A DNA stretch of 64,000 nucleotides from a virus. A program made the position numbers and the translations under genes. Positions 6,133 to 57,044 of the stretch are shown one piece after another. The first letter of the stretch is position 1, and the number at the start of each line of letters is the position of its first letter. The stretch lies in IMG/VR virus record IMGVR_UViG_3300028412_000009, one strand, 5' to 3'. The notes beneath the pieces are model-generated. The model worked only from the letters and a program-made list of their open reading frames with translations. It was not told where the DNA came from and made no database searches.

Positions 6133-9100
6133 GTGTCAGCACCTCTTGATGATCCCCAAGAGCTCGATGAGCTCGTTGCCTTAGCCGCCCGCAGGCTGAG
6201 GAACTTGGGCGGTAGCAAGAGTCGGGGAGGCCGCTATGTTCGAACTCCCGAGGGGGCCCGACACTTCGGCCAGCCTGTAGGTACTCTCATCACCGCTGAC
6301 ATGGAAGCGGCGGCTGAGAGGCGTTCCGGTACCAAGGCCCCAAAGAATGCTCTGTCTTACGCGAAGCCCAAGCCTCAGACATCGGCACCCGGCTCTCGTC
6401 CTTTTGCAATGGGGGATCCCAAGAAGGATGGGCCTCATGTAGTCCAGCCTGTAAACAATCAGCCCGGCAACTCTTCGAAGTCTCAGAGCGTGGCTTCCAA
6501 GAAGGCGTCCACTCCTAGAGATGTTAATGCAGACAAGCCGAAGTTCGATGTTCCCACCAGGCTTAAGGAAACGCCATCTCTCCAGGGAGACAAGAAGTTT
6601 CGAGTAGGTAAGAAGGCTTACGATGCTCCAGAGGGTTCTCGCCTTATCAAGACCAAGGATGGTAAACTGGCTTATGTCATTGACCCCTCTGGTCGTCCCC
6701 ACCTCTTCAATGAGCGTGGTGAGGTAGAGCTCTCCCTGGAAAATGAGAACCGTATTGCTCGACTGTTCACTGAAGACTTCTCTGAGGACGAAAAGTACTC
6801 TGTTGAGGAGTTTGAGGAAGGAGGCACTAACCTAGGTCAGGTTGGTGACTCTGTCCCCGGCCGGGATTGGCTAAAGAATACTGACCCCGGTTCTGTCATT
6901 TCTTTTGGCGAGGGGGAAAAGGTCCGCTGGAAGAAGGGCTCTGATGGAAACTGGCGTCGTGAGGAGGATGGAGACTCTGGCCCGCATTTTGAGTCTGAGG
7001 TTATGCCCTTTGACGAGAATACGAAGATCGAAGAAGTTCCCGAAGTCAGGTCCGACCAGGCCTTCGACCCAGCCATTGATGAAGTTGATGATACTGACCT
7101 TGATGAGCTGAACGCGGAAATAGAAGAGTCCATGGAGCGACTATCTCCTGAGGACCAAGATCTTGTTCGAGCCATGACATTCCAGATGCGCAGTATGGTC
7201 GCGGGTCGTTCCCTGGGATCTCCCGAGGGTGGGGACCGATCTGAAAGCGAAGACACGCGACAGCCCTCTGTCGGGGGGCCAGTAGATCGAGAGACTCTCA
7301 GTTCATCTAAGCCGGGCACTACAGTGTCTGAGGAAGACCCTGTCGAGAACCGAAAGATTCGTTGGACGAAGAACGAGGATGGCAAGTGGTACACCCGAGG
7401 GTCTGACGAGGGGGTTGAGGATGACTACTTCGATGAGTCCTCCTCTGCAACCTTTACGTCGGTCCCCGATTCCTCCCCCGAGGGTCAGTCAGATTCTCGG
7501 CCTGCTTCCGAGAGCTCCTCTTCTGCTGGGAAAGACTCCACAGAATTCGTGCCTGGTGATTCAGAAGCCGGTACTACGGTCACTGTCCCGGAGGGGGATT
7601 CTGGCCGCGTCTTCGTGAAGGTAGGGGATAACCAGTGGGTCTCCCCCTCCCCCGATGGGTCCAATGTTGACAGCTTCACTGATGACGACATGAAGGATAG
7701 GGACGTAACTGTCCTGCCTTCCTCTGACAGGCGCGCCGCCTCCGGGAGGCGCATGGCAGAACGCCGTAGTCGTGAGGCTTCCCCTCTTCCCTCAGCTGAG
7801 TCGGTTGAAGCTAACCAGCGCGCCCGCCGCGAGGCTTCCGAAGAAGCTAGCCGTCGAGGTCGCGAGCTTATGAAGGCTGACGAGAGGCGCAGGGCTGATG
7901 AGGCTAGAAAGAACCCAGCTGAGGTCTCTGATTTGGATGGGGCTGGGGCCGGAGAATCCGTGACTGTGGTTGACCCTGACGGTTCTGTCAAGAGTTGGAA
8001 AAAGTCCGAGCAGACGGGCAATTGGCACGACTGGGACCGAGACAAGATCAGTCCTTTCTCCGAGGCGTTGAACGGCACGTCAGACAGAGAGAAGAGGGGC
8101 CTTTCTTCAGAAGAGCTTCTTGAGGAAAGTGAGGCTGTCTCCAAGCCCGCTTCCCGTCGAGGTCGGGGTACTTCGGAGGGAGAGAGTGCTCGCCCAACTC
8201 CCCAGCCTGACCCCAACAACCCCAATGATCTTTCCAACGCCGAAGAGGGCGATGTTGCCTATGCTCAGGATGAAGATGGCAACGACCGAGAGTTCTTGAA
8301 GTCTCCTAATGGATCTTGGATGTCTGCTCCTGAGGGTAAGGACACCTTTGAAGAGTGGTCTGATGATGAGTTGAGAGAGCTCGGTGGGGAGCTCGATCCT
8401 ACTCGCACTTCTGTAGACTTCCCCAACGCTTACGGATCTCACACCAATCAGGTCCAGCCTAATGAGGAGGCCGCTCCTACTAGCCCTGAAGGTGCTGAGT
8501 CTTCTCCCCGCCCTCGGAGGAGGAGAGGGCGTAGAAAGTCCGTCCCTGGATTTGATGAAATAGATACGGGGGATTCAGGGGCTAATGACGAGCTCTTCGA
8601 CCCTGACGCTGAGCCTCAGGATCTTCCTGAAGGAGAAGATGTCATCCCCAAGGCCAATGAGTTTGAAGAGGTTGACCAGCCGGGAGATGAGGCTCGTAAG
8701 CGCCCTGGAGGCAAGATGCCCCAGCGCAAGCCTTCGCCAGATCTTCCTGATACCGACACTCTCGGGAACCCTGATGGCTTCTCTCCCACTCCAGTGGGTG
8801 CCGAAAATCAGGAGTGGTCACTTCAGCCTAAGGACACCATTACCCGTGAATGGTTCCGTAACGCCCCTGCCGGTTCTCAGATCACTGCCCCCGATCCGAC
8901 CTCTGCACGCGGAGAGTCCATCTGGGAGAAGGATCTCAACGGAGAGTGGAACCGAGTTGTCGGTCGTGCCGGTCACTTCAGTCCGCGCTCAACTGGTGGG
9001 GCCGGTAACGAGGGCCCGGGTCACAACTTCAACATTTTCGAGCCCGATGGGTCCCTTTCTGAGGAGTTCGGGGATTACAAGGTTGGTAAGTCGGGAGACG

Positions 9101-46792: not shown

Positions 46793-47026
46793 GTGGCTCA
46801 ATCTTCAAGCTCAGCCCGTTCTAGCTCATCCGGAGGTATCGGATTTGCGGGGCTTCTGACTATTGCTTTTATCGTGCTCAAGCTTACAGGGGTTATCTCC
46901 TGGTCATGGTTGTGGGTACTTTCCCCTCTTTGGATCAGCTTCGCTCTTGGCTTGCTTATCCTGACCATCTTTCTTATTTGCGTGTTGTTTTCGGCCATAT
47001 TCTTGGGAGGTAGTAAGAAGTGGTAA
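46793..47026 (+). CDS. Small membrane protein (2 TM)
   Basis: 77 aa with two hydrophobic helices. Confidence 0.3.
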   Translation: MAQSSSSARSSSSGGIGFAGLLTIAFIVLKLTGVISWSWLWVLSPLWISFALGLLILTIFLICVLFSAIFLGGSKKW

Positions 47027-48264
47027 CCCTAGAGCAAGTAAAAGAAAACCTCATCACTGAGAATGAGGTAATGGAGCGTCTGGGAAAGTTAGAACCCTTA
47101 GGCTCCGTGGCTCTCACCAAAGACAGTAAGGTCAAGTTTGAAATCGACCCCGAGTGGAGCCTTGACGTAGACACGTTGGAAGACTCCGATCCCGTCAAGG
47201 TGCATCTCACTATCGACGGTCAAGAACGCCAGCTTTCGAAGGAAGCTTTCTTCCAGTCGGCTGTTAACATGGGTCTCCCGATGTCCACTGTGAAGCGCGT
47301 TCCTCACGACGCTGTACAGGGGTTCCTCAACAGGACTTACAGAGACTCCGGGAAAGAGTACAACGTTCTCTCCGTAGATGGGCTCGCCTCTGCGTTCACT
47401 CCCCCCACCATCATCCCCTTCTCAAATCTTGAGCTGATGGAGCGTGTGCTGGGGTCTATTCGGTCAACCTACGGTTCAGACTCTGAGGTCTATGCTGATT
47501 TCAAGTTCAATCACTCGCTGACTCGAACCGATGTCCGCCTCATTGTTCCAGCCGAGTTCCGCAGAATGCAGGACACCCACATGGATGATGTTCCTCATGG
47601 GCAGGAAGATGATTGGGCCGCAGGGATCCACCTGTCCAACTCTCTCATTGGGAAGTCTCAGACGACTCTCCAGGCCTACATGTTCCGCTGGTGGTGCTCC
47701 AACGGGTGCACTACTAAGCTGGAGTCCGTAGGGAAGTGGGATCGACGCAGTAATGTTCACCGCACGGACGAGGTCTATCGGTGGGCCGCAGAGGCTGTCA
47801 ATGAAGTTCTGGGTGGGATGGAAGAGCGCTTTGACCAGGTTCAAGCCCTGACCTCTCTTGAGGTGCAGGACCCGGCCACTGCCCTGAATGAGGTCTTCGG
47901 TCACTACTCGTTACCTGCTCGTCAGCGCAACCGGATCCTTGACACGGTCGTTTCCACGTCAGATCTGACAATGTATACGCTCATGCAGGCAGTGACAGAG
48001 GCGGCTAATGATCCTGCCCTATCTCCAGGGGACGTTAACCGACTCCTTCATGTAGGTGGAGACTTTGCAGGAGAGGGAGTCCTCGACCCTATCAAGGCTC
48101 GTGTCTTCCGTTCTGGTCAAATGGCTGGCCCTGACGCTCCCAACCCCTTTGAGATCTCTACTAGGATCGAAGTAGGCAATCTTATCGGTGGGGCTGATCT
48201 CTCGCTCAGGATCTCCCCCCTCCTTGATAATCCGCTGAAGCTCAGCGGCAGTGTGAGGGACTGA
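47020..48264 (+). CDS. Hypothetical protein
   Basis: 414-aa ORF with no recognisable motif. Confidence 0.3.
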   Translation: MVTLEQVKENLITENEVMERLGKLEPLGSVALTKDSKVKFEIDPEWSLDVDTLEDSDPVKVHLTIDGQERQLSKEAFFQSAVNMGLPMSTVKRVPHDAVQGFLNRTYRDSGKEYNVLSVDGLASAFTPPTIIPFSNLELMERVLGSIRSTYGSDSEVYADFKFNHSLTRTDVRLIVPAEFRRMQDTHMDDVPHGQEDDWAAGIHLSNSLIGKSQTTLQAYMFRWWCSNGCTTKLESVGKWDRRSNVHRTDEVYRWAAEAVNEVLGGMEERFDQVQALTSLEVQDPATALNEVFGHYSLPARQRNRILDTVVSTSDLTMYTLMQAVTEAANDPALSPGDVNRLLHVGGDFAGEGVLDPIKARVFRSGQMAGPDAPNPFEISTRIEVGNLIGGADLSLRISPLLDNPLKLSGSVRD

Positions 48265-48863
48265 TGAAATTCAAGCAGGTGAGACACCTCCTTTGGTGTG
48301 ATTTGGAGACATCAAGCCTCCCAAAAAAGAATGACTACTCCGGTGTTCATATTTTGGAAGTTGGAGTTATTCTTACTGATATGTCTCTCAATAAGTTGGG
48401 AGGATACAGTGAAGTAATCAAGATGACCGACGAGGCCGCTGACTCTCTGCGCAAAACCCCTGGAGTTTTGGAGATGCACAAGAGTAGCGGCCTCTTGAAG
48501 GACTGCGTCAATGCGACGATGACAGTCCCGGATGTTGAGTCTGAGATCCTGGCGTTGCTTGATGACAACAACGTCGAGGTCCAAGCGGTAGCCCTTGCAG
48601 GCTCGGGAGTGACAGCGTTCGATCATCCCGTGATCAAGGAGCATATGCCTCTCCTTGCAGAGGCTCTGACGTACTTCAGTTATGACATTGGCTCTTTCCG
48701 CAGAATGTTCAAGCTTGTCAGTGGGGGAACGCCTATCGTCAATCCCTCCAACCACAGTTATGGGCCGACCAAGAAGCATCGAGCTATGGAGGACATCAAG
48801 GCTCATCTGGAGGAGGCTGAGGAATACATGGAGGCTGTCAAAAAGCTCCTTCCTCCCTTCTAG
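48264..48863 (+). CDS. DEDDh-family 3'-5' exonuclease (DnaQ-like)
   Basis: Exo I WCDLETSSL. Exo II VTAFDHPV. Exo III HRAMEDI (H-x4-D). Confidence 0.55.
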   Translation: MKFKQVRHLLWCDLETSSLPKKNDYSGVHILEVGVILTDMSLNKLGGYSEVIKMTDEAADSLRKTPGVLEMHKSSGLLKDCVNATMTVPDVESEILALLDDNNVEVQAVALAGSGVTAFDHPVIKEHMPLLAEALTYFSYDIGSFRRMFKLVSGGTPIVNPSNHSYGPTKKHRAMEDIKAHLEEAEEYMEAVKKLLPPF

Positions 48864-51424: not shown

Positions 51425-52427
51425 ATGTTCGTATTGGCATTGATTCTGATCCTTCTGGGAATTGCTGGGCTTTTTGTCTCCCTGGTGCTCCACAAGAAGG
51501 TCAAGAATATGATGAGCGCGGAGTCTTCGCGCTACTTCAACTCCGATCTGGCAGACGCCAAGTTCGCTAAGAAAACGACTCTGGTCATCTCTTGCATCTT
51601 GGGGGCTGTTGGGCCCGTCGTCTTGTTCTTCAGCTCGTTTTATGTTCAGGATGCTGGTGAGGCAAAGGTTCAGGTTTCGTGGACTGGTGAGCTCATCGGA
51701 CAGACTACTGAGGAGGGACTGCACTTCAAGGCCCCTTGGGTCAGTGTCCGTACCTTCGATGTCCGCAACAACATTGCTTCCTTCATTGATGGCGGGGGAG
51801 ACCACTTATACGGGAGGCAAGGCCACCGGCCCTCAGATCACCTTCCAGGACCGTGATGGTGTGACGGGTAACCTCGATGTTGTCGTTCGATACTCAGTGG
51901 ATCCCACCGCTGTATTGGAGATCTATCGAGAGTTTCAGACCCAGGAAGCCTTTGTTGATCGAGTGATTCTCCAGGGGGTCCGCGAAGAGGCCAGAAATGC
52001 TCCTGCTACTCGTGGGACTCTAGAGGTCTACAACTCCCGAGCTCAGGTAGCTTTCGAGATCTCGGAGTCCTTGCGCGAGCGCTGGGCTGAGGAAGGTGTC
52101 ATCGTTGAAGAGGTCACACTCCAGGAGATTCGCTACAGCTCCGAAGTGACTGCCCGTTTTGATGACGCACAAGCGGCTCGGATTGCTGTGGACCGGGCTG
52201 AGGCTGAGCAGGAAGCGGCTTCGGTTGTTGCTGACACCTTGGTGATTGAAGCACAGGGTGTGGCTGATGCGGCTGTGGTTGAGGCCCAGGGGCGGTCTGA
52301 GGCAAACGAGATCCTCTCCAGCTCCCTGACTGAGGAAATTCTTCTCCAACGCTACATCGACGCACTGAATGATGGTACAATCTATGTAGTCCCGGAGGGA
52401 TCCACTCCCTTCATTGGGACCCGATAG
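51425..52427 (+). pseudogene. SPFH/band-7 (prohibitin/HflKC-like) gene interrupted by a +1 frame change in a G5 run near 51793-51797
   Basis: N-terminal TM helix plus the start of the SPFH domain sit in one frame (51425-51856). The continuation is in another frame (VVRYSVDP...VIEAQGVADAAVVEAQGRSEANEIL...YIDAL...IYVVP, to 52427). The junction lies at ggcgggggag. Confidence 0.5.
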
Positions 52428-53709: not shown

Positions 53710-54410
53710 CAGAAATTCAGTTCTCAGATATTGCCGTAAATCTCATTGGCTCTATGGGATCTGACGCTTCTATTGTGCAGGCGGCTCGTGTTTCTCTTTC
53801 CGGAGAAAACGAGGTTGAAATGACCTCAAAGGAAGAGGGTCTTATCAATTATTTGATGAGAAATAAGCACGGGTCTCCCTTTGAACACACTACTCTCAAG
53901 TTCTATGTCAAAGCCCCCATCTTTGTGTTCCGTGAATTCCATAGACACAGGATCGGATTCAGTTACAATGAGATGAGTGGCCGATACACCAAGCTGAAAC
54001 CAGAGTTCTATCTTCCTTCTTGGGATAGGCCTTTGATCAATGTGGGGACTAGTGCCTCCCCTGATTTTGCTCCTGGGGATGAGTACCTCGTCACCAAACT
54101 TCGAGAGACTCTCGCTTCTCAGTATCGAAGTGCTTGGAATGATTATGAAGAGCTTATTGCTATGGGGGTTGCCAACGAGGTAGCCAGGGTGCTCCTTCCT
54201 GTGGGAATCATGAGCCAGATGTATGTCACGTGTAATGTTCGGTCCATGATGAGCTTCCTGTCTCTGCGCACCCAGGATGACCGCGCGGCTCATGTCTCGA
54301 AGCCTCAGCTGGAGATCCAGATGGTGGCTCGTCAGATGGAGGAGGCTTTTGCTGGGCTCTTCCCTGTCACCTACGCCAGCTACAACACCAACCAGCGTGT
54401 GGCTCCGTAG
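53706..54410 (+). CDS. thyX: Flavin-dependent thymidylate synthase ThyX
   Basis: ThyX signature REFHRHRIGFSYNEMSGRY (RHRxxxxxxxS-x-R). Confidence 0.85.
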   Translation: MTEIQFSDIAVNLIGSMGSDASIVQAARVSLSGENEVEMTSKEEGLINYLMRNKHGSPFEHTTLKFYVKAPIFVFREFHRHRIGFSYNEMSGRYTKLKPEFYLPSWDRPLINVGTSASPDFAPGDEYLVTKLRETLASQYRSAWNDYEELIAMGVANEVARVLLPVGIMSQMYVTCNVRSMMSFLSLRTQDDRAAHVSKPQLEIQMVARQMEEAFAGLFPVTYASYNTNQRVAP

Positions 54411-54411
54411 A

Positions 54412-54422
54412 GGCCGATAGTA
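54412..54422 (+). promoter_or_regulatory. Conserved intergenic 11-mer GGCCGATAGTA
   Basis: 2 nt after the thyX stop, just upstream of the Y RNA promoter. Confidence 0.3.
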
Positions 54423-54450
54423 GAAAGTTCAAAATTTTTGCCCTCTGAGC

Positions 54451-54480
54451 TTGACAAGGGCCCGGAGGGTCTGTAGTGTC
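54451..54480 (+). promoter_or_regulatory. Sigma-70-like promoter upstream of the Y RNA array
   Basis: TTGACA at 54451-54456, an 18-nt spacer, and TAGTGT at 54475-54480. Lies just downstream of an instance of the conserved 11-mer. Confidence 0.35.
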
Positions 54481-54506
54481 ATCAACATAACTTAACAGCG
54501 CGAGAT

Positions 54507-54592
54507 TTACACGAGCCGAAGAGGCAGTCGGTTATCATTCAAACTGAAATTATGCCCTCGGGCTATCCGACCCTCACCCCATGTTCGTGTGT
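54507..54592 (+). ncRNA. Y RNA-like element 1 (Ro60-binding-type stem with bulged C; internal GC hairpin gccctcgggc)
   Basis: 5' ttaCACGAGC-C-GAAGagg pairs with 3' cCTC-ACCCCAT-GTTCGTGtg. The architecture matches units 2 and 3. A GGTTATC box is shared by all three units. Confidence 0.4.
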
Positions 54593-54598
54593 TTCTTA

Positions 54599-54709
54599 GA
54601 ATGAGCCGAAGAGGCATCGGTTATCCCACTGAAAATGAGAACCTGGCGGTTCGATTCCGTCATTAGTTGGAACAGGTTATTTTTCCGATCTTCACCCCCA
54701 TGCTCATTC
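54599..54709 (+). ncRNA. Y RNA-like element 2 with tRNA-like T-arm
   Basis: 5' GAATGAGC-C-GAAG (54599-54611) pairs with 3' CTTC-ACCCCCAT-GCTCATTC (54690-54709). Internal T-arm GGCGG-TTCGATT-CCGTC at 54645-54661. Confidence 0.5.
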
Positions 54710-54713
54710 ACTC

Positions 54714-54755
54714 GCCTCTCTTGGAGGTTCATCGGGTTCGACTCCCGATGGAGGC
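54714..54755 (+). ncRNA. tRNA top-half-like minihelix (acceptor-like stem GCCTC/GAGGC enclosing a perfect T-arm)
   Basis: TCGGG-TTCGACT-CCCGA (54732-54748) flanked by gcctc...gaggc. No D-arm or anticodon arm is present. Confidence 0.3.
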
Positions 54756-54758
54756 ACA

Positions 54759-54892
54759 AAAACTGAACCGAAGAAGTATTGGTTATCCATGCTAAGGAAG
54801 AGGTCACGGGTTCGAATCCCGTCATCAGACCTAGTCTGATGTAGCTCAGAGGCAGAGCGCTTAAACCCAATCTTCACCCCATGTTCAGTTTT
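54759..54892 (+). ncRNA. Y RNA-like element 3 (YrlA-like) with a complete tRNA-mimic module
   Basis: Terminal stem AAAACTGAAC-C-GAAG (54759-54773) pairs with CTTC-ACCCCAT-GTTCAGTTTT (54872-54892). Inside are a T-arm ACGGG-TTCGAAT-CCCGT (54806-54822), an acceptor-like hairpin CATCAGAC-cta-GTCTGATG (54823-54841), a U8-A9-like TA, and a D-arm GCTC-AGAGGCA-GAGC (54844-54858). Confidence 0.55.
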
Positions 54893-54937
54893 ACCACATG
54901 TTCAGAAATACTGAACCGAGAGAAAGGATGAACACCT

Positions 54938-56557
54938 ATGGCTAACAATAGCCTCAAGTCCGTCACAACCCGACCCGGAATGACGGCCACTCCTCAGACG
55001 CAGAAGGCGGCTAAGGGGCAGAAGGAGAACAACGCAGGCGGCTACACGTTCACTGTCTCAGACATGGACCGAGCCAAGCGTTTCTTGATCCTTGGATCTG
55101 ACTCGTCGTTCTACCAGAGCGGCCAGGAGCTCTCCAAGGACAACGCCAAGAACCTGATCAAGCTTGCGAAGTCTGACCGTGCCCAGGAGCTCACTGACCT
55201 GATTGTGGAGATCTCCACTCAGGGTCGTGCGGCCAAGCAGGACCCCGGTCTGTTTGCACTGGCCGTCGTGGCTTCCCATGGCGCGACTGAGGACAAGCAG
55301 TACGCTCTGTCCAAGCTCTCTCAGGTAGCCCGTACCGGATCCTCGCTGTTCACGTTCATCACTTACGTGGAGCAGTTCCGAGGGTGGGGGCGTGCCCTGA
55401 CCAAGGCGGTTTCTTCTTGGTACACGGAGAAGTCTGTGGACAAGCTCGCCTACCAGACGGTGAAGTACCGTCAGCGTGATGGCTGGACTCACCGGGACGT
55501 GTTCCGCAAGGCGCACCCTCAGAAGGGCAAGAACGGAATCTCCGAAGGAGAGGATGCTCGTGCTTTTGAGGCGCTGGGTGAGTGGATTCTCCGAGGTGAG
55601 TTGTTGGAGAACACTCCTAAGCTTGTTCGCGGCTTCACGATGGCCCAGACTGCTTCTAAGTCTGAGCTTCCTGCTCTGATCAGGGAGTACGGACTGTCGT
55701 GGGAGATGCTTCCTACCGAGGCTCTGAACGACAAGAAGGTCTGGGAGACGTTGCTTCAGGGCAATGTTCCTCTCGGGGCCCTGTTGCGTCAGCTTCCTCG
55801 TTTGACGAAGCTCGGCATCGTCGCGCCTATGGGTGGAAAGACTGCTGAGATCGCCAAGAGGATCACTGATCCTGAGGAGCTCAAGCGTGCCCGTATCCAC
55901 CCCTTGAACCTTCTGGTTGCCCAGAAGACCTACGGGGCGGGGCACAGCCTCCGGGGCAATTCCTCCTGGGCCCCCAACCAGAAGATCGTGGACGCTCTTG
56001 ACAAGGCCTTCTACCTGTCCTTCAAGACGGTCGAGCCCGCTGGCAAGCGCACTCTGATTGGGTTGGATGTCTCCGGCTCGATGGGCTGGGCTTCAGTGGC
56101 CGGGGTTCCTCTCATGCCTTCCGAGGCAGGAGCGGCCCTTGCGTTGGTCATTGCCAACACGGAGCCTGAGGCGCACATCTTCGGATTTGCGGACACCTTC
56201 CGTGAGTTGGGCCTCTCCCCAGGGATGCGACTTGACCAGGCCCTGCGGCAGACAAGTTTAAGGACGTTCGGAGGCACGGACTGTGCTCAGGCCATCGAGT
56301 ACGCTCGTACTCACAAGTTGGAAGTGGACACGTTCCTTGTGATCACAGACAACGAAACCTACGGGGGTCGGAGTCACCCACACGAGGCCTTGCAGAGGTA
56401 CCGTCGAGAGACTGGCATCGATGCGAAGCTCATCGTGCTGGCGACTACTGCTTCCGAGTTCAGCCTCGCGGATCCCAGTGATGGTGGGATGCTGGACATC
56501 GCTGGGTTCGACTCAGCAGTTCCTCAGCTGATCAACGAGTTCTCTCGGGGACTCTGA
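54938..56557 (+). CDS. rsr: Ro60 orthologue (Rsr): TROVE domain plus C-terminal vWA domain
   Basis: 539 aa. The N-terminal and central region resembles TROVE. The vWA MIDAS motif LIGLDVSGSMGW (DxSGS) is followed by conserved vWA blocks. GC content and codon usage are higher than in the flanking phage genes. Confidence 0.8.
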   Translation: MANNSLKSVTTRPGMTATPQTQKAAKGQKENNAGGYTFTVSDMDRAKRFLILGSDSSFYQSGQELSKDNAKNLIKLAKSDRAQELTDLIVEISTQGRAAKQDPGLFALAVVASHGATEDKQYALSKLSQVARTGSSLFTFITYVEQFRGWGRALTKAVSSWYTEKSVDKLAYQTVKYRQRDGWTHRDVFRKAHPQKGKNGISEGEDARAFEALGEWILRGELLENTPKLVRGFTMAQTASKSELPALIREYGLSWEMLPTEALNDKKVWETLLQGNVPLGALLRQLPRLTKLGIVAPMGGKTAEIAKRITDPEELKRARIHPLNLLVAQKTYGAGHSLRGNSSWAPNQKIVDALDKAFYLSFKTVEPAGKRTLIGLDVSGSMGWASVAGVPLMPSEAGAALALVIANTEPEAHIFGFADTFRELGLSPGMRLDQALRQTSLRTFGGTDCAQAIEYARTHKLEVDTFLVITDNETYGGRSHPHEALQRYRRETGIDAKLIVLATTASEFSLADPSDGGMLDIAGFDSAVPQLINEFSRGL

Positions 56558-56575
56558 GCTCAGCTTCTCCTAGCC

Positions 56576-56622
56576 AAGGCCGGGCGACAACAACTTCAGG
56601 GTTGCTTTTGTCGCCCGGCCTT
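56576..56622 (+). terminator. Strong hairpin terminator after rsr
   Basis: 15-bp perfect inverted repeat aaggccgggcgacaa / ttgtcgcccggcctt, with a structured 17-nt loop containing ttttg. Confidence 0.55.
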
Positions 56623-56666
56623 GCTACGCTAGGGCCACGACTTACTAAAAAGAAAGGAAATTCACA

Positions 56667-57044
56667 ATGACTAAGACACTTCGAAAAGCACTCCAAGAGG
56701 CTGTCGCTGAGCGTGAAGCTGATTACCGTTACAAGGAACACTTTGCCAATTGCAGGTATCAAGACCAGGGAGAGCCTTCCTGTATTGTAGGTCTTGCTCT
56801 ATCGAAGATGGGGGTATCTATCGATAAGCTGGCTGAAATGGATAATAACTGTGACGTTTTCTCAACCTCTGTTGATGCGTTGTGTTCTGCGGAATTGTTC
56901 CCAGTGGGGCTGAGCGGGGCTGAGGTACAAGCTTTGAGTGAGGCGCAAGCTTGCCAGGACCAAGGAGGGACCTGGGGCGAGGCCCTGAAGGCGTATGACC
57001 AATCTCTCAAGGCGTCGGAGGCCCTGGGGGCGGTGACCTCATGA
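56667..57044 (+). CDS. Hypothetical Cys-containing protein
   Basis: 125-aa ORF with a good RBS (aaaggaaattcacaATG). Confidence 0.3.
   Translation: MTKTLRKALQEAVAEREADYRYKEHFANCRYQDQGEPSCIVGLALSKMGVSIDKLAEMDNNCDVFSTSVDALCSAELFPVGLSGAEVQALSEAQACQDQGGTWGEALKAYDQSLKASEALGAVTS

What the first reader, a model, noticed from the sequence alone, without database searches (positions are those of the whole stretch)
54938..56557. Phage-encoded Ro60/Rsr orthologue (TROVE + vWA)
A 539-aa protein shows the Ro60 organisation: a TROVE-like N-terminal and central region, then a C-terminal von Willebrand A domain with a DxSGS MIDAS motif. Ro60/Rsr is an RNA-quality-control ring protein that binds Y RNAs and misfolded RNAs. 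Finding it in a phage replication and auxiliary gene block implies the phage deploys a Ro60 RNP during infection. Possible roles are rRNA/tRNA surveillance, scavenging cleaved tRNAs, or interference with host RNA-targeting defences. The gene is compositionally distinct (higher GC, GC3-rich codons) from neighbouring phage genes, which suggests capture from a host.
Basis: partly seen in the sequence, partly recalled or inferred. Interest (0 to 1): 0.85.

Follow-up and report, generated by a model that had tools for sequence, protein, structure and literature searches.

The report
Phage Ro60 gene with Y RNAs
The gene is a genuine phage copy of the ring-shaped RNA-binding protein Ro60/Rsr, preceded by three unreported partner "Y RNA" genes, but such modules are already well known in phages of actinobacteria, so the only possibly new item is a small Y-RNA-like hairpin sitting on the gene's own ribosome-binding site.

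Summary
ORF 54938-56557 (+), 539 aa, is a full-length Ro60/Rsr orthologue. It has Pfam TROVE and vWA_Ro60 domains, a complete MIDAS motif, an E 1e-114 match to D. radiodurans Rsr, and a predicted ring with TM 0.90 to Ro60 structures. It lies in a siphovirus-like actinophage genome.

It is not new as a kind. 368 GenBank phage records and 270 IMG/VR contigs encode relatives. Phage Ro60 has been known since 2003, and a phage Ro60 crystal structure appeared in 2025.

The 527-nt gap upstream holds three tandem Y RNA genes on the same strand: U1 54507-54592, U2 54597-54711 and U3 54759-54892. U3 is YrlA-type, scoring 111 bits (E 3e-26) against a model built only from relatives. There is also an orphan T-arm.

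The GC3 excess is real (0.719, z 3.1). However, rsr is GC-richer than its flanks in about 95-99% of viral loci and 88-97% of bacterial loci. It therefore does not indicate recent host capture.

One possibly undescribed feature exists. A circularly permuted copy of the Y-RNA Ro-binding helix (54893-54920) abuts the rsr Shine-Dalgarno sequence. It is conserved with covariation in a clade of phage and actinobacterial rsr leaders, which suggests autoregulation. This is untested.

The parts
54451..54479 (+). Promoter-like site: -35 TTGACA (54451-54456), 17-nt spacer, -10 TAGTGT (54474-54479, fits the actinobacterial TANNNT form)
   Evidence: Read directly from the sequence. The sigma-70 consensus scan did not report it because the -10 matches TATAAT at only 3 of 6 positions. 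Similar TTGAC(A/T) boxes precede the Y RNA/rsr region in L005 and L007. Function is inferred and was not tested.
54507..54592 (+). Y RNA unit U1: a minimal Y RNA. It has a 9-bp terminal stem, a CGAA/ACCCCAU internal loop, GAGG/CCUC and GUCGG/CCGAC helices and a small apical region, with no tRNA-like domain
   Evidence: RNAfold gives -25.8 kcal/mol, z -2.8. It carries the motif GCCGAAG...GGTTATC. It scores 37.3 bits, E 2e-9, against model R2 with filters off. A near-orthologous unit exists in Microbacterium phage Cece.
54597..54711 (+). Y RNA unit U2: the same Ro-binding stem module plus a T-arm (GGCGG-TTCGATT-CCGTC), with no acceptor-like stem or D arm (YrlB-like)
   Evidence: RNAfold. It scores 49.7 bits, E 1.4e-10, against R2 over the whole window.
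54711..54757 (+). Orphan tRNA-like T-arm (CAUCGGG-UUCGACU-CCCGAUG), preceded by GGAGGUU and flanked by GCCUC/GGAGG pairings. It is either a relic of a fourth unit or a processing signal
   Evidence: RNAfold gives -19.4 kcal/mol, z -2.4. It gives a local 12-bit match to the T-arm positions of R2. It also drove sub-threshold tmRNA and Plastid-ycf2 Rfam hits. ARAGORN finds no tRNA or tmRNA.
54759..54892 (+). Y RNA unit U3: a YrlA-type Y RNA. It has a 10-bp terminal stem, CGAA loop, GAAG/CUUC and AUUGG/CCAAU helices, then a T arm, an 8-bp acceptor-like stem and a D arm
   Evidence: It scores 111.1 bits, E 3.1e-26, full length, against model R2, which was built from 26 units of relatives only. Rfam YrlA RF02553 gives a partial hit at 54798-54864, 34.9 bits, E 3e-5, below GA 69. 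RNAfold gives -41.2 kcal/mol, z -2.8.
54893..54928 (+). rsr leader element. ACCACAU, then hairpin GUUCAG-AAAUA-CUGAAC (54900-54916), then CGAG (54917-54920), then SD AAAGGA (54923-54928). It is a circularly permuted copy of the Y-RNA terminal (Ro-binding) helix, abutting the ribosome-binding site
   Evidence: Sequence. The same element is found in 30 distinct rsr leaders. The scan gave 32 hits in the 50 nt before rsr against about 4-5 per 50-nt bin elsewhere. RNAalifold predicts the hairpin, with 4 of 6 pairs compensatory. A model trained only on bacterial leaders finds the window leader among just 4 hits in 460 kb, all at rsr leaders. Model R3 gives 34.9 bits.
54938..56557 (+). rsr: Ro60/Rsr orthologue, 539 aa (TROVE/HEAT-repeat ring + vWA with MIDAS)
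56568..56633 (+). Long, near-perfect 3' hairpin after the rsr stop codon, without a U tract. It is a possible terminator or 3' stabiliser
   Evidence: The MFE of region 56558-56666 is -46.4 kcal/mol. The sub-threshold mir-4872 Rfam hit merely reflects the hairpin. The intrinsic-terminator scan did not report it.

Best explanation
The locus is a compact phage Ro60-Y RNA module of the kind common in actinophages. A promoter-like site at 54451-54479 is followed, all on the + strand, by three Y RNA genes. These are U1 (minimal), U2 (with a T-arm) and U3 (YrlA-type, with a tRNA-like T/acceptor/D domain). Then come a short leader, the rsr gene and a strong 3' hairpin.

Shown here: the protein is a full-length Ro60/Rsr ring with an intact MIDAS vWA domain. 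Each of the three RNAs carries the conserved Ro-binding architecture: a terminal stem, a large internal loop containing CGAA, then a second and third helix ending in GGUUAUC. This architecture is shared, with covarying stems, by the units upstream of rsr in related phages and actinobacteria.

Inferred from established work on D. radiodurans, Salmonella, M. smegmatis and Thermus phage phiLo: the array and rsr are transcribed together and the RNAs are processed out. Each Y RNA binds the outer surface of the Rsr ring and gates or tethers it to a host effector, most likely the exoribonuclease PNPase. During infection the phage would thereby reprogramme or dampen host structured-RNA decay and quality control.

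Additional inference, untested: the leader hairpin mimics the Y-RNA Ro-binding helix right next to the Shine-Dalgarno sequence. Free Rsr could bind its own mRNA and repress translation, with the Y RNAs competing for Rsr.
For: Protein:
- Pfam TROVE and vWA_Ro60 are both above GA.
- NCBIfam Rsr aligns over 17-538 at E 9.5e-145, and PHROG 850 at 9.5e-89.
- phmmer against PDB gives 2nvo Rsr 1.2e-114, 1yvp Xenopus Ro60 7e-110 and 9nen human RO60 4e-106, all full length.
- The AF2 model has pLDDT 88 and pTM 0.87. It superposes on Ro60-RNA complexes at TM 0.90-0.91 and rmsd 2.1-2.6 A.
- The MIDAS residues are invariant.

RNAs:
- The pattern CCGAAG-N6-9-GGTTA occurs 3 times in 64 kb, all at 54516-54785 (+), against 0.06 expected.
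- All three units fold to the same architecture, alone and within the 550-nt transcript.
- The terminal stem is 94.4% paired over 16 units from 7 loci, with 8 of 9 pairs showing double changes and 0 of 500 shuffles reaching this.
- Model R2, built without window sequences, scores U3 at 111 bits, U2 at 50 bits and U1 at 37 bits, and nothing else in the window.
- R2 finds 193 units in 71 of 80 viral rsr loci, all on the rsr strand and nearly all upstream.

Literature:
- YrlA/YrlB lie upstream of rsr in one precursor, with the GNCGAAN0-1G motif, in 22 phages (PMC4201824).
- The phiLo Ro60 binds two upstream Yrl RNAs and host PNPase and attenuates PNPase (PMC12135203).

Leader.
Against: - No expression, processing or binding data exist for this phage. 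RNA ends are unknown.
- The Rfam YrlA hit is below the gathering score (34.9 against 69) and covers only the tRNA-like part.
- The NCBIfam Rsr equivalog cutoff is not reached (483 against 900).
- U3's motif begins with A and not G (ACCGAAG).
- The PNPase-tethering step is borrowed from other systems, and the host is unknown. The capsid's nearest relative is a Microbacterium phage at 59.6% aa.
- For the stem covariation, the 3' partners were chosen by complementarity, so the percentage paired is partly built in. The conserved C-x-T-G anchor beside each partner was not part of the selection.
- The leader element occurs in only about 30 of 170 rsr loci. A helix-2 mimic that would sequester the SD is not supported by RNAalifold.
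Confidence: 0.85

Rival explanations
1. One reading: the gene is a recent capture from the bacterial host, revealed by its foreign GC and GC3-rich codon usage.
For: GC3 of 0.719 is the highest of 74 ORFs, z 3.1. Several of the closest homologues at about 60% identity lie on long actinobacterial MAG contigs (L009, L010). Isolated phages reach at most 53%.
Against: The GC excess is family-wide. rsr exceeds its flanks in 99% of 80 viral loci (mean +0.050) and 97% of 65 bacterial loci. Against the downstream flank only, the figures are 95% and 88%. The window's +0.065 is ordinary by this measure. The very closest relatives (99%, 69%, 64%) are on phage-like contigs with small ORFs, WhiB and amidase. 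The adjacent Y RNA array and leader are shared with distant phages such as Cece, which argues for long residence as a module in phages.
Confidence: 0.12
2. The upstream repeats are not functional Y RNAs. They would be decayed tRNA genes or a relic of the tRNA arrays that precede rsr in related phages.
For: Relatives L001-L004 carry tRNA arrays just upstream of their Y RNA units. The window has T-arm-like sequences, including an orphan one at 54730-54750.
Against: ARAGORN and Rfam tRNA models find nothing in the window. All three units keep the non-tRNA Ro-binding module (CGAA loop, GGUUAUC, CAUG) with covarying terminal stems. U3 scores 111 bits against a Y RNA model trained on other genomes. 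A near-identical strain conserves the region, with 4 differences in 546 nt.
Confidence: 0.03
3. The leader hairpin is not an Rsr operator. It would instead be a processing or stability element, such as an RNase cleavage site separating the Y RNA precursor from the rsr mRNA or a 5' stabilising stem-loop. Alternatively it is a fossil junction left by tandem duplication of Y RNA units.
For: In the window and in L009 the hairpin arms have the same sequence as the terminal stem of the adjacent unit (CTGAAC/GTTCAG; GGGCGAGC/GCTCGCCC), as expected after a duplication. Y RNAs are processed from polycistronic precursors in M. smegmatis and D. radiodurans (PMC4201824). The element is confined to one clade.
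Against: In L001, L003 and L007 the hairpin arms differ from the neighbouring unit's stem. The Ro-contact motifs (CAUG, GNCCGA) are the invariant positions. The fixed 15-26 nt distance from CGA to the start codon, with the SD in between, is conserved across phage and bacterial loci whose proteins are 45-69% identical to the window protein.
Confidence: 0.4
4. The phage Ro60 RNP acts mainly as a counter-defence or RNA-repair accessory, for example against tRNA- or rRNA-cleaving host defences, and not through PNPase modulation.
For: In Salmonella, rsr and the Y RNAs sit in the rtcBA RNA-repair operon (PMC7790460). The bacterial relative L009 has Hen1/Pnkp repair genes just downstream of rsr. Hu et al. 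speculate about interference with CRISPR type III through PNPase.
Against: No RtcB, Pnkp, Hen1 or other RNA-repair gene lies near rsr in the window. Its neighbours are ThyX, dNMP kinase, unknowns, a methyltransferase and SbcCD-like proteins. No PADLOC or anti-defence evidence was sought or found.
Confidence: 0.2

Closest known systems
Actinophage 'Ro-like RNA binding protein' (PHROG 850; e.g. Microbacterium phage Cece gp176, Gordonia phage BearBQ gp43, cluster C mycobacteriophages such as ScottMcG/ET08)
   Same: Full-length TROVE + vWA_Ro60 protein, 47-53% identical. In Cece the same three-unit Y RNA array and the same leader hairpin lie upstream. A band-7 gene is also nearby in both.
   Different: There is no DNA-level match to any deposited phage. 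The genome backbone is distant: the capsid's best hit is 59.6% aa to Microbacterium phage Magritte. The window has no tRNA genes, whereas several related viral contigs have tRNA arrays next to the Y RNAs.
Bacterial Rsr with YrlA/YrlB Y RNAs (M. smegmatis, S. Typhimurium; Chen et al. 2014, PMC4201824; Rfam RF02553)
   Same: The Y RNAs are upstream of rsr on the same strand. They carry the GNCGAAN0-1G motif. One RNA has a T arm, acceptor-like stem and D arm (U3), and a second has only a T arm (U2, like M. smegmatis YrlB).
   Different: The score is below the Rfam gathering threshold (34.9 against 69), as for all actinobacterial and phage relatives tested here at 31.7-46.7 bits. Both strands of the Ro-binding helix are conserved here (CAUG on the 3' side), whereas Chen et al. 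say only the 5' strand is recognisable in Salmonella and M. smegmatis. There is a third, minimal unit and an orphan T-arm.
Thermus phage phiLo Ro60 with Yrl1/Yrl2 (Hu et al. 2025, PMC12135203; PDB 9l5y)
   Same: A phage-encoded Ro60 with Y RNA-like genes upstream. These are defined by a 5'-3' stem flanking a large bulge with CGAA. It is the only phage system with biochemical data: it binds Yrl RNAs and host PNPase and attenuates PNPase.
   Different: The relationship is very distant. There is no sequence hit at E 1e-3, identity is 19-20% and TM only 0.56. The window protein is much closer to Xenopus/human Ro60 (TM 0.90). phiLo dimerisation features were not examined here.
Translational operators that mimic the protein's primary RNA ligand (textbook cases: E. 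coli thrS operator mimicking tRNA-Thr; ribosomal-protein operators mimicking rRNA sites) - cited from general knowledge
   Same: The rsr leader carries a copy of the conserved Ro-binding helix and its flanking CAUG / GNCCGA motifs, placed 3-10 nt from the Shine-Dalgarno sequence.
   Different: There is no experimental evidence of binding or regulation. The mimic is circularly permuted, closed by a loop at what is the open end in Y RNAs. The element is restricted to one clade of rsr genes. No paper describing it was found in the searched library.

Membership tests
Ro60/Rsr (TROVE + vWA ring proteins) | TROVE (HEAT-repeat) domain detected above the curated threshold | tested here: met
   PF05731 at E 5.4e-46, 158 bits against GA 23.
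Ro60/Rsr (TROVE + vWA ring proteins) | C-terminal Ro60-type vWA domain with a complete MIDAS motif (DxSxS...T...D) | tested here: met
   PF25045 at E 4.7e-55, aa 371-535. D377, S379, S381, T447 and D471 are invariant in 15 relatives.
Ro60/Rsr (TROVE + vWA ring proteins) | End-to-end similarity to experimentally characterised Ro60/Rsr | tested here: met
   2nvo at 1.2e-114 (aa 17-538), 1yvp at 7e-110 and 9nen at 4e-106.
Ro60/Rsr (TROVE + vWA ring proteins) | Closed ring (doughnut) fold | tested here: met
   The AF2 model has pLDDT 88 and pTM 0.87. TM is 0.90-0.91 to Ro60-RNA complexes over about 535 columns. This is a predicted structure, not a solved one.
Ro60/Rsr (TROVE + vWA ring proteins) | NCBIfam 'RNA-binding protein Rsr' equivalog score cutoff | tested here: not met
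   NF041674 gives 483 bits against a cutoff of 900, although the alignment covers 17-538 of 539 aa. The protein is a diverged orthologue, not within NCBI's equivalog threshold.
Ro60/Rsr (TROVE + vWA ring proteins) | Binds Y RNA on the outer surface and misfolded RNA ends in the central hole | not testable with these tools
   This needs EMSA or a structure. Only the presence of cognate-looking RNAs next door was shown.
YrlA-type bacterial/phage Y RNA (Rfam RF02553; Chen et al. 2014) | Reaches the Rfam gathering score | tested here: not met
   34.9 bits against GA 69, covering model positions 23-87 only. Relatives from phages and actinobacteria also score 31.7-46.7 bits.
YrlA-type bacterial/phage Y RNA (Rfam RF02553; Chen et al. 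2014) | GNCGAAN0-1G motif near the 5' end | tested here: met
   U1 and U2 have GCCGAAG. U3 has ACCGAAG, where the first G is replaced by A and pairs with U in place of a G-U pair.
YrlA-type bacterial/phage Y RNA (Rfam RF02553; Chen et al. 2014) | tRNA-like domain: T arm, acceptor-like stem and D arm in that order | tested here: met
   U3 has CGGG-UUCGAAU-CCCG, an 8-bp CAUCAGAC/GUCUGAUG stem and GCUC-AGAGGCA-GAGC. U2 has only the T arm, and U1 has none.
YrlA-type bacterial/phage Y RNA (Rfam RF02553; Chen et al. 2014) | Encoded within 4 kb of rsr on the same strand | tested here: met
   The units lie 46-431 nt upstream of the start codon on the + strand.
YrlA-type bacterial/phage Y RNA (Rfam RF02553; Chen et al. 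2014) | Homology to Y RNA units of related rsr loci (covariance model built here without window sequences) | tested here: met
   R2 scores U3 at 111.1 bits (E 3e-26), U2 at 49.7 bits and U1 at 37.3 bits. There are no other hits in 64 kb.
YrlA-type bacterial/phage Y RNA (Rfam RF02553; Chen et al. 2014) | Stable RNA bound by Rsr in vivo; tRNA-type modifications | not testable with these tools
   No transcript or immunoprecipitation data are available.
Phage Yrl RNAs as defined by Hu et al. 2025 | [quoted passage not shown] | tested here: met
   All three units have an 8-10 bp stem, a CGAA / (C)ACCCCAU loop and a second helix. The criteria were read.
Autoregulatory operator by ligand mimicry (considered for the leader hairpin) | Leader contains a mimic of the protein's RNA ligand overlapping or adjacent to the ribosome-binding site | tested here: met
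   The elements are CAUG-stem-loop-stem-GNCCGA, with the SD 3-10 nt downstream. The scan hits are enriched about 7-fold at rsr leaders. Covariation was found. Models cross-validate between bacteria and phages.
Autoregulatory operator by ligand mimicry (considered for the leader hairpin) | The protein binds the leader and represses its own translation | not testable with these tools
   This requires EMSA, toeprinting or reporter assays.

The most novel reading that the evidence does not exclude
In a clade of rsr genes shared by actinobacteria (Nocardia, several Actinomycetota MAGs) and their phages, including this one and Microbacterium phage Cece, the rsr mRNA leader carries a circularly permuted mimic of the Y-RNA Ro-binding helix directly abutting the Shine-Dalgarno sequence. 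This would make Rsr a translational autorepressor whose synthesis is set by competition between its own mRNA and the co-transcribed Y RNAs. No such feedback loop for any Ro60 turned up in the one literature search made here.
Probability: 0.35. Interest if true: 0.55.

Novelty: new member of a known kind. Interest (0 to 1): 0.3.

Why it matters
The finding as stated matters little. Phage Ro60 genes are catalogued in hundreds of actinophages, their Y RNAs were described a decade ago, and one phage Ro60 has been solved and linked to host PNPase.

The follow-up adds three practical points.
- The partner Y RNAs (three here, and up to about six per locus in 71 of 80 related viral contigs) are routinely left unannotated even in curated GenBank phages such as Cece and BearBQ. 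A simple covariance model recovers them cleanly.
- The GC-rich composition of rsr is intrinsic to the family and should not be read as evidence of horizontal transfer.
- The conserved Y-RNA-like hairpin on the rsr ribosome-binding site offers a directly testable hypothesis for how Ro60 levels are matched to Y RNA levels. That aspect of Ro60 biology turned up no mechanism in the one literature search made here.

Tried and rejected
- Megablast of 54300-56700 against 50,697 phage records gave no match, so no annotated near-relative could be used.
- ARAGORN and Rfam at gathering thresholds found nothing in the 64 kb. The Y RNAs appeared only in an E-value scan.
- Sub-threshold Rfam hits to tmRNA (18.9 bits), Plastid-ycf2 (27.3) and mir-4872 (19.7) were rejected as side effects of T-arm-like hairpins and the 3' hairpin.
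- The sigma-70 and terminator scans gave nothing useful.
- A first, loose hairpin scan for the leader had too high a background: 29 observed against about 18 expected. It was replaced by a refined pattern with a positional histogram.
- Model R1, trained on GC-rich bacterial leaders only, gave weak E-values of 0.09-0.9. Only the positions of its hits are informative.
- The idea that the leader also mimics Y-RNA helix 2 and sequesters the SD was considered by eye. It was dropped because RNAalifold predicts only the hairpin.
- Comparison with the near-identical strain L173 was uninformative, with 4 differences.
- The GC-based host-capture inference was tested and rejected.
- A literature search for Rsr autoregulation returned only PNPase autoregulation papers.
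- Not done: a protein phylogeny, identification of the host, and a PADLOC scan of neighbours.
Full report
**The observation**

An ATG-initiated ORF of 539 aa lies exactly at 54938-56557 on the + strand. An AAAGGA Shine-Dalgarno sequence sits 9 nt upstream of the start.

- Pfam finds TROVE (E 5.4e-46) and the Ro60-specific vWA domain PF25045 (E 4.7e-55, aa 371-535). Both are far above their gathering scores.
- NCBIfam's Rsr model aligns over residues 17-538 (E 9.5e-145, 483 bits) but stays under its strict equivalog cutoff of 900.
- PHROG 850 'RNA-binding protein' matches at 9.5e-89.
D377, S379, S381, T447 and D471, the full MIDAS set, are invariant in an alignment with 14 relatives.
- By sequence the protein matches D. 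radiodurans Rsr (2nvo, 1.2e-114), Xenopus Ro60 (1yvp, 7e-110) and human RO60 (9nen, 4e-106) end to end.
- An AlphaFold2 model (pLDDT 88, pTM 0.87) superposes on Ro60-RNA complexes at TM 0.90-0.91 and rmsd 2.1-2.6 A over about 535 columns.

The protein is a Ro60/Rsr orthologue.

**Context**

The window is a siphovirus-like phage genome segment. It carries terminase, portal, protease, major capsid, tape measure, helicases, DnaB, PolA and UvsX. Around rsr it has an SbcC-like ATPase, a band-7 protein, dNMP kinase, ThyX, a DNA methyltransferase and an SbcD-like phosphoesterase. The capsid's best relative among deposited phages is Microbacterium phage Magritte at 59.6% aa, so the host is probably an actinobacterium. 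No deposited phage matches at the DNA level. A 2.5-kb metagenome contig (L173) is a near-identical strain.

The 527-nt gap between thyX and rsr is not empty. An E-value Rfam scan gave a sub-threshold YrlA hit at 54798-54864: 34.9 bits against GA 69, E 3e-5, covering only the tRNA-like part of the model.

Repeat analysis and folding show three tandem units with one architecture. Each has:
- an 8-10 bp terminal stem;
- an internal loop with CGAA on the 5' side and (C)ACCCCAU on the 3' side;
- a 4-bp GAGG/CCUC (or GAAG/CUUC) helix;
- a 5-bp helix ending in the invariant GGUUAUC;
- a variable apical part.

The pattern CCGAAG-N6-9-GGTTA occurs three times in the whole 64 kb, all here, against 0.06 expected. 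The three units keep their folds in the MFE structure of the full 550-nt region.

The same units, in 1-4 copies, precede rsr in related phage contigs and actinobacterial MAGs. Over 16 units the terminal stem is 94.4% paired, with double changes at 8 of 9 pairs and 0 of 500 shuffles reaching this. One caveat applies: I chose each 3' partner by complementarity. However, each partner sits immediately after a conserved C-x-T-G that was not used in the choice.

A covariance model built from 26 YrlA-type units of other genomes, with none from the window, gave these results:

| Unit | Coordinates | Score | E-value | Search |
|---|---|---|---|---|
| U3 | 54759-54892 | 111.1 bits | 3e-26 | whole window |
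| U2 | 54597-54711 | 49.7 bits | 1.4e-10 | whole window |
| U1 | 54507-54592 | 37.3 bits | 2.3e-9 | filters off, 54300-55000 |

Nothing else in the window scored.

- U3 has the T arm, an 8-bp acceptor-like stem and a D arm of YrlA.
- U2 keeps only a T arm, like M. smegmatis YrlB.
- U1 is a minimal Y RNA with a close counterpart in Microbacterium phage Cece.
- Between U2 and U3 lies an orphan T-arm hairpin (54711-57). It may be a relic of a fourth unit or a tRNA-like processing signal.

A TTGACA-17-TAGTGT promoter-like site (54451-54479) precedes the array. A very stable hairpin without a U tract follows the rsr stop codon.

**How ordinary this is**

- tblastn finds the protein in 368 phage records: 212 Mycobacterium, 117 Streptomyces, 19 Gordonia and 10 Microbacterium. 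Most of the records listed are annotated 'Ro-like RNA binding protein' or 'RNA-binding protein'.
- 270 IMG/VR contigs encode relatives.
- My Y RNA model finds 193 units at E<=1e-4 in 71 of 80 of those loci. Every one is on the rsr strand and nearly all are upstream, in arrays of up to about six.
- Chen et al. 2014 reported likely Y RNAs next to Ro60 in 254 bacteria and 22 phages. They defined the GNCGAAN0-1G motif and showed that YrlA and YrlB lie upstream of rsr in one precursor in M. smegmatis (PMC4201824).
- Hu et al. 2025 solved the Ro60 of Thermus phage phiLo. They identified two upstream Yrl RNAs by the stem-bulge(CGAA)-stem criterion. They showed binding to host PNPase with attenuation of its activity (PMC12135203).

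The window locus is thus a new member of a known kind.

**Mechanism**

Shown here:
- an intact Ro60 ring protein;
- three adjacent cognate-type RNAs;
- a single-strand, promoter-to-hairpin layout.

Inferred from the cited systems:
- the array and rsr are co-transcribed and processed;
- the Y RNAs bind the outer face of the ring and tether or gate it;
- the most likely effector is host PNPase, so the phage would alter structured-RNA decay and quality control during infection.

Nothing in the neighbourhood points to RNA repair: there is no RtcB, Pnkp or Hen1. By contrast, a bacterial relative (L009) has Hen1/Pnkp just downstream of rsr. An anti-defence role remains possible but unsupported.

**The composition argument**

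The numbers are right: GC is 0.590 and GC3 is 0.719, the highest of 74 ORFs, at z 3.1. The inference fails. rsr is GC-richer than its flanks in 99% of 80 viral loci (mean +0.050, sd 0.023) and in 97% of 65 bacterial loci. Against the downstream flank alone the figures are 95% and 88%. The window's +0.065 is unremarkable for the family.

The nearest homologues are a mixture of phage-like contigs (99%, 69%, 64% identity) and actinobacterial MAGs (about 60%). This speaks for long-standing exchange, not a recent capture.

**The one unexpected feature: the leader hairpin**

Immediately 5' of the rsr Shine-Dalgarno sequence the window reads ACCACAU-GUUCAG-AAAUA-CUGAAC-CGAG-AG-AAAGGA (54893-54928). 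This is the 3'-strand motif (..CAUG) and the 5'-strand motif (GNC-CGA) of the Y-RNA terminal helix. Here they are joined by a loop at what is the open end in Y RNAs, making a circular permutation of the Ro-binding helix.

- The same arrangement, with different but complementary arm sequences, stands before the start codon in L001, L002, L003, L005, L007, L009, L031, phage Cece, several Actinomycetota MAGs and many Nocardia genomes.
- A pattern scan over 1.6 Mb (170 loci, both strands) gave 32 hits in the 50 nt before rsr, against 4-5 per 50-nt bin elsewhere.
- RNAalifold predicts exactly this hairpin in 14 bacterial leaders, with compensatory changes at 4 of 6 pairs. Those sequences had been picked by a hairpin scan, so the percentage paired is partly circular.
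- As a cross-check, a model trained only on bacterial leaders found four hits at E<=1 in 460 kb of window plus viral loci. All four were at rsr leaders, including the window's.
- A broader model recovered held-out leaders in L078/79, L094, L100, L103, L106-109 and L116. It also showed that most other viral rsr loci lack the element.
- The invariant positions of the leader alignment (CAUG, GCCGA) are the same ones that are invariant in the Y RNA units. The CGA motif lies 15-26 nt from the start codon, with the SD in between.

The most economical reading is an operator by ligand mimicry. Free Rsr would bind its own leader and block the ribosome-binding site, and the Y RNAs would compete for Rsr. 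I put this at about 0.35. The main rival, at about 0.4, is a processing or stability element, or a duplication scar. In the window and in L009 the hairpin arms equal the neighbouring unit's stem, which fits a scar. In L001, L003 and L007 they do not. I found no paper describing such an element in the searched library, and no Rfam family covers it.

**Verdict**

The evolutionary inference is not supported, and the biological novelty is low. The added value is the delineation of the complete module (promoter, three Y RNAs, orphan T-arm, leader hairpin, rsr, 3' hairpin) and a testable autoregulation hypothesis.

Noticed in passing
window 51425-52427 (+): The band-7/SPFH gene appears split between two reading frames. 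ORF 51425-51856 encodes a transmembrane N-terminus and the start of the SPFH domain. The overlapping ORF 51609-52427 carries the rest (Pfam Band_7 from aa 74). This could be a frameshift, a sequencing error or a programmed shift. Microbacterium phage Cece also has a band-7 gene two genes upstream of its Ro60.
   Followed up: partly
window 6133-11445 (+): A 1770-aa ORF lies between the portal and the head-maturation protease. It has no Pfam hit at E 1e-3. It is the largest gene in the window and its function is unknown.
   Followed up: partly
L172 (Microbacterium phage Cece OP068343.1, locus 1498-1997) and L171 (Gordonia phage BearBQ OR253908.1, locus 2057-2467): In both curated GenBank phages the 400-500 nt gap upstream of the 'Ro-like RNA binding protein' gene has no annotated feature, yet it contains Y RNA units. 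Cece has three units plus the leader hairpin. BearBQ has two units with a CGGA variant of the motif.
   Followed up: partly
L011-L090 (80 IMG/VR loci), upstream of rsr: Y RNA units form tandem arrays of up to about six copies per locus: 193 hits in 71 loci, all on the rsr strand. In several clades a unit of about 70 nt ends within 25-100 nt of the rsr start codon. In L001-L004 the arrays are directly preceded by tRNA gene arrays. The window has no tRNA gene at all.
   Followed up: partly
L009 8299-11659 (actinobacterial MAG contig, ~61% identical Rsr): A Hen1 methyltransferase, an AAA_33 kinase, a metallophosphatase and a PNKP-ligase domain protein lie just downstream of rsr. Together they form a bacterial Pnkp/Hen1 RNA-repair cassette. 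The same locus has three or four Y RNA units and the leader hairpin.
   Followed up: no
all rsr loci (L011-L170): rsr is systematically GC-richer than its surroundings in both phages (mean +0.05) and bacteria (mean +0.03). This is a family-wide compositional bias whose cause was not investigated. Amino-acid composition, codon selection for expression, and mRNA structure are possible causes.
   Followed up: partly
window 54880-54934 (+): UGAACA at 54929-54934, between the SD and the start codon, is complementary to UGUUCA. That sequence occurs in U3's 3' strand (54882-54887) and in the leader hairpin's 5' arm (54899-54904). RNAfold of 54880-54945 pairs 54882-54887 with 54929-54934 around the leader hairpin. 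Alternative pairings that include the translation-initiation region are therefore possible.
   Followed up: no
window 48264-48863 (+) and 47020-48264 (+): An RNase_T/DnaQ-like exonuclease and a DUF932 protein sit in the replication block. They were not examined for any link to RNA metabolism.
   Followed up: no
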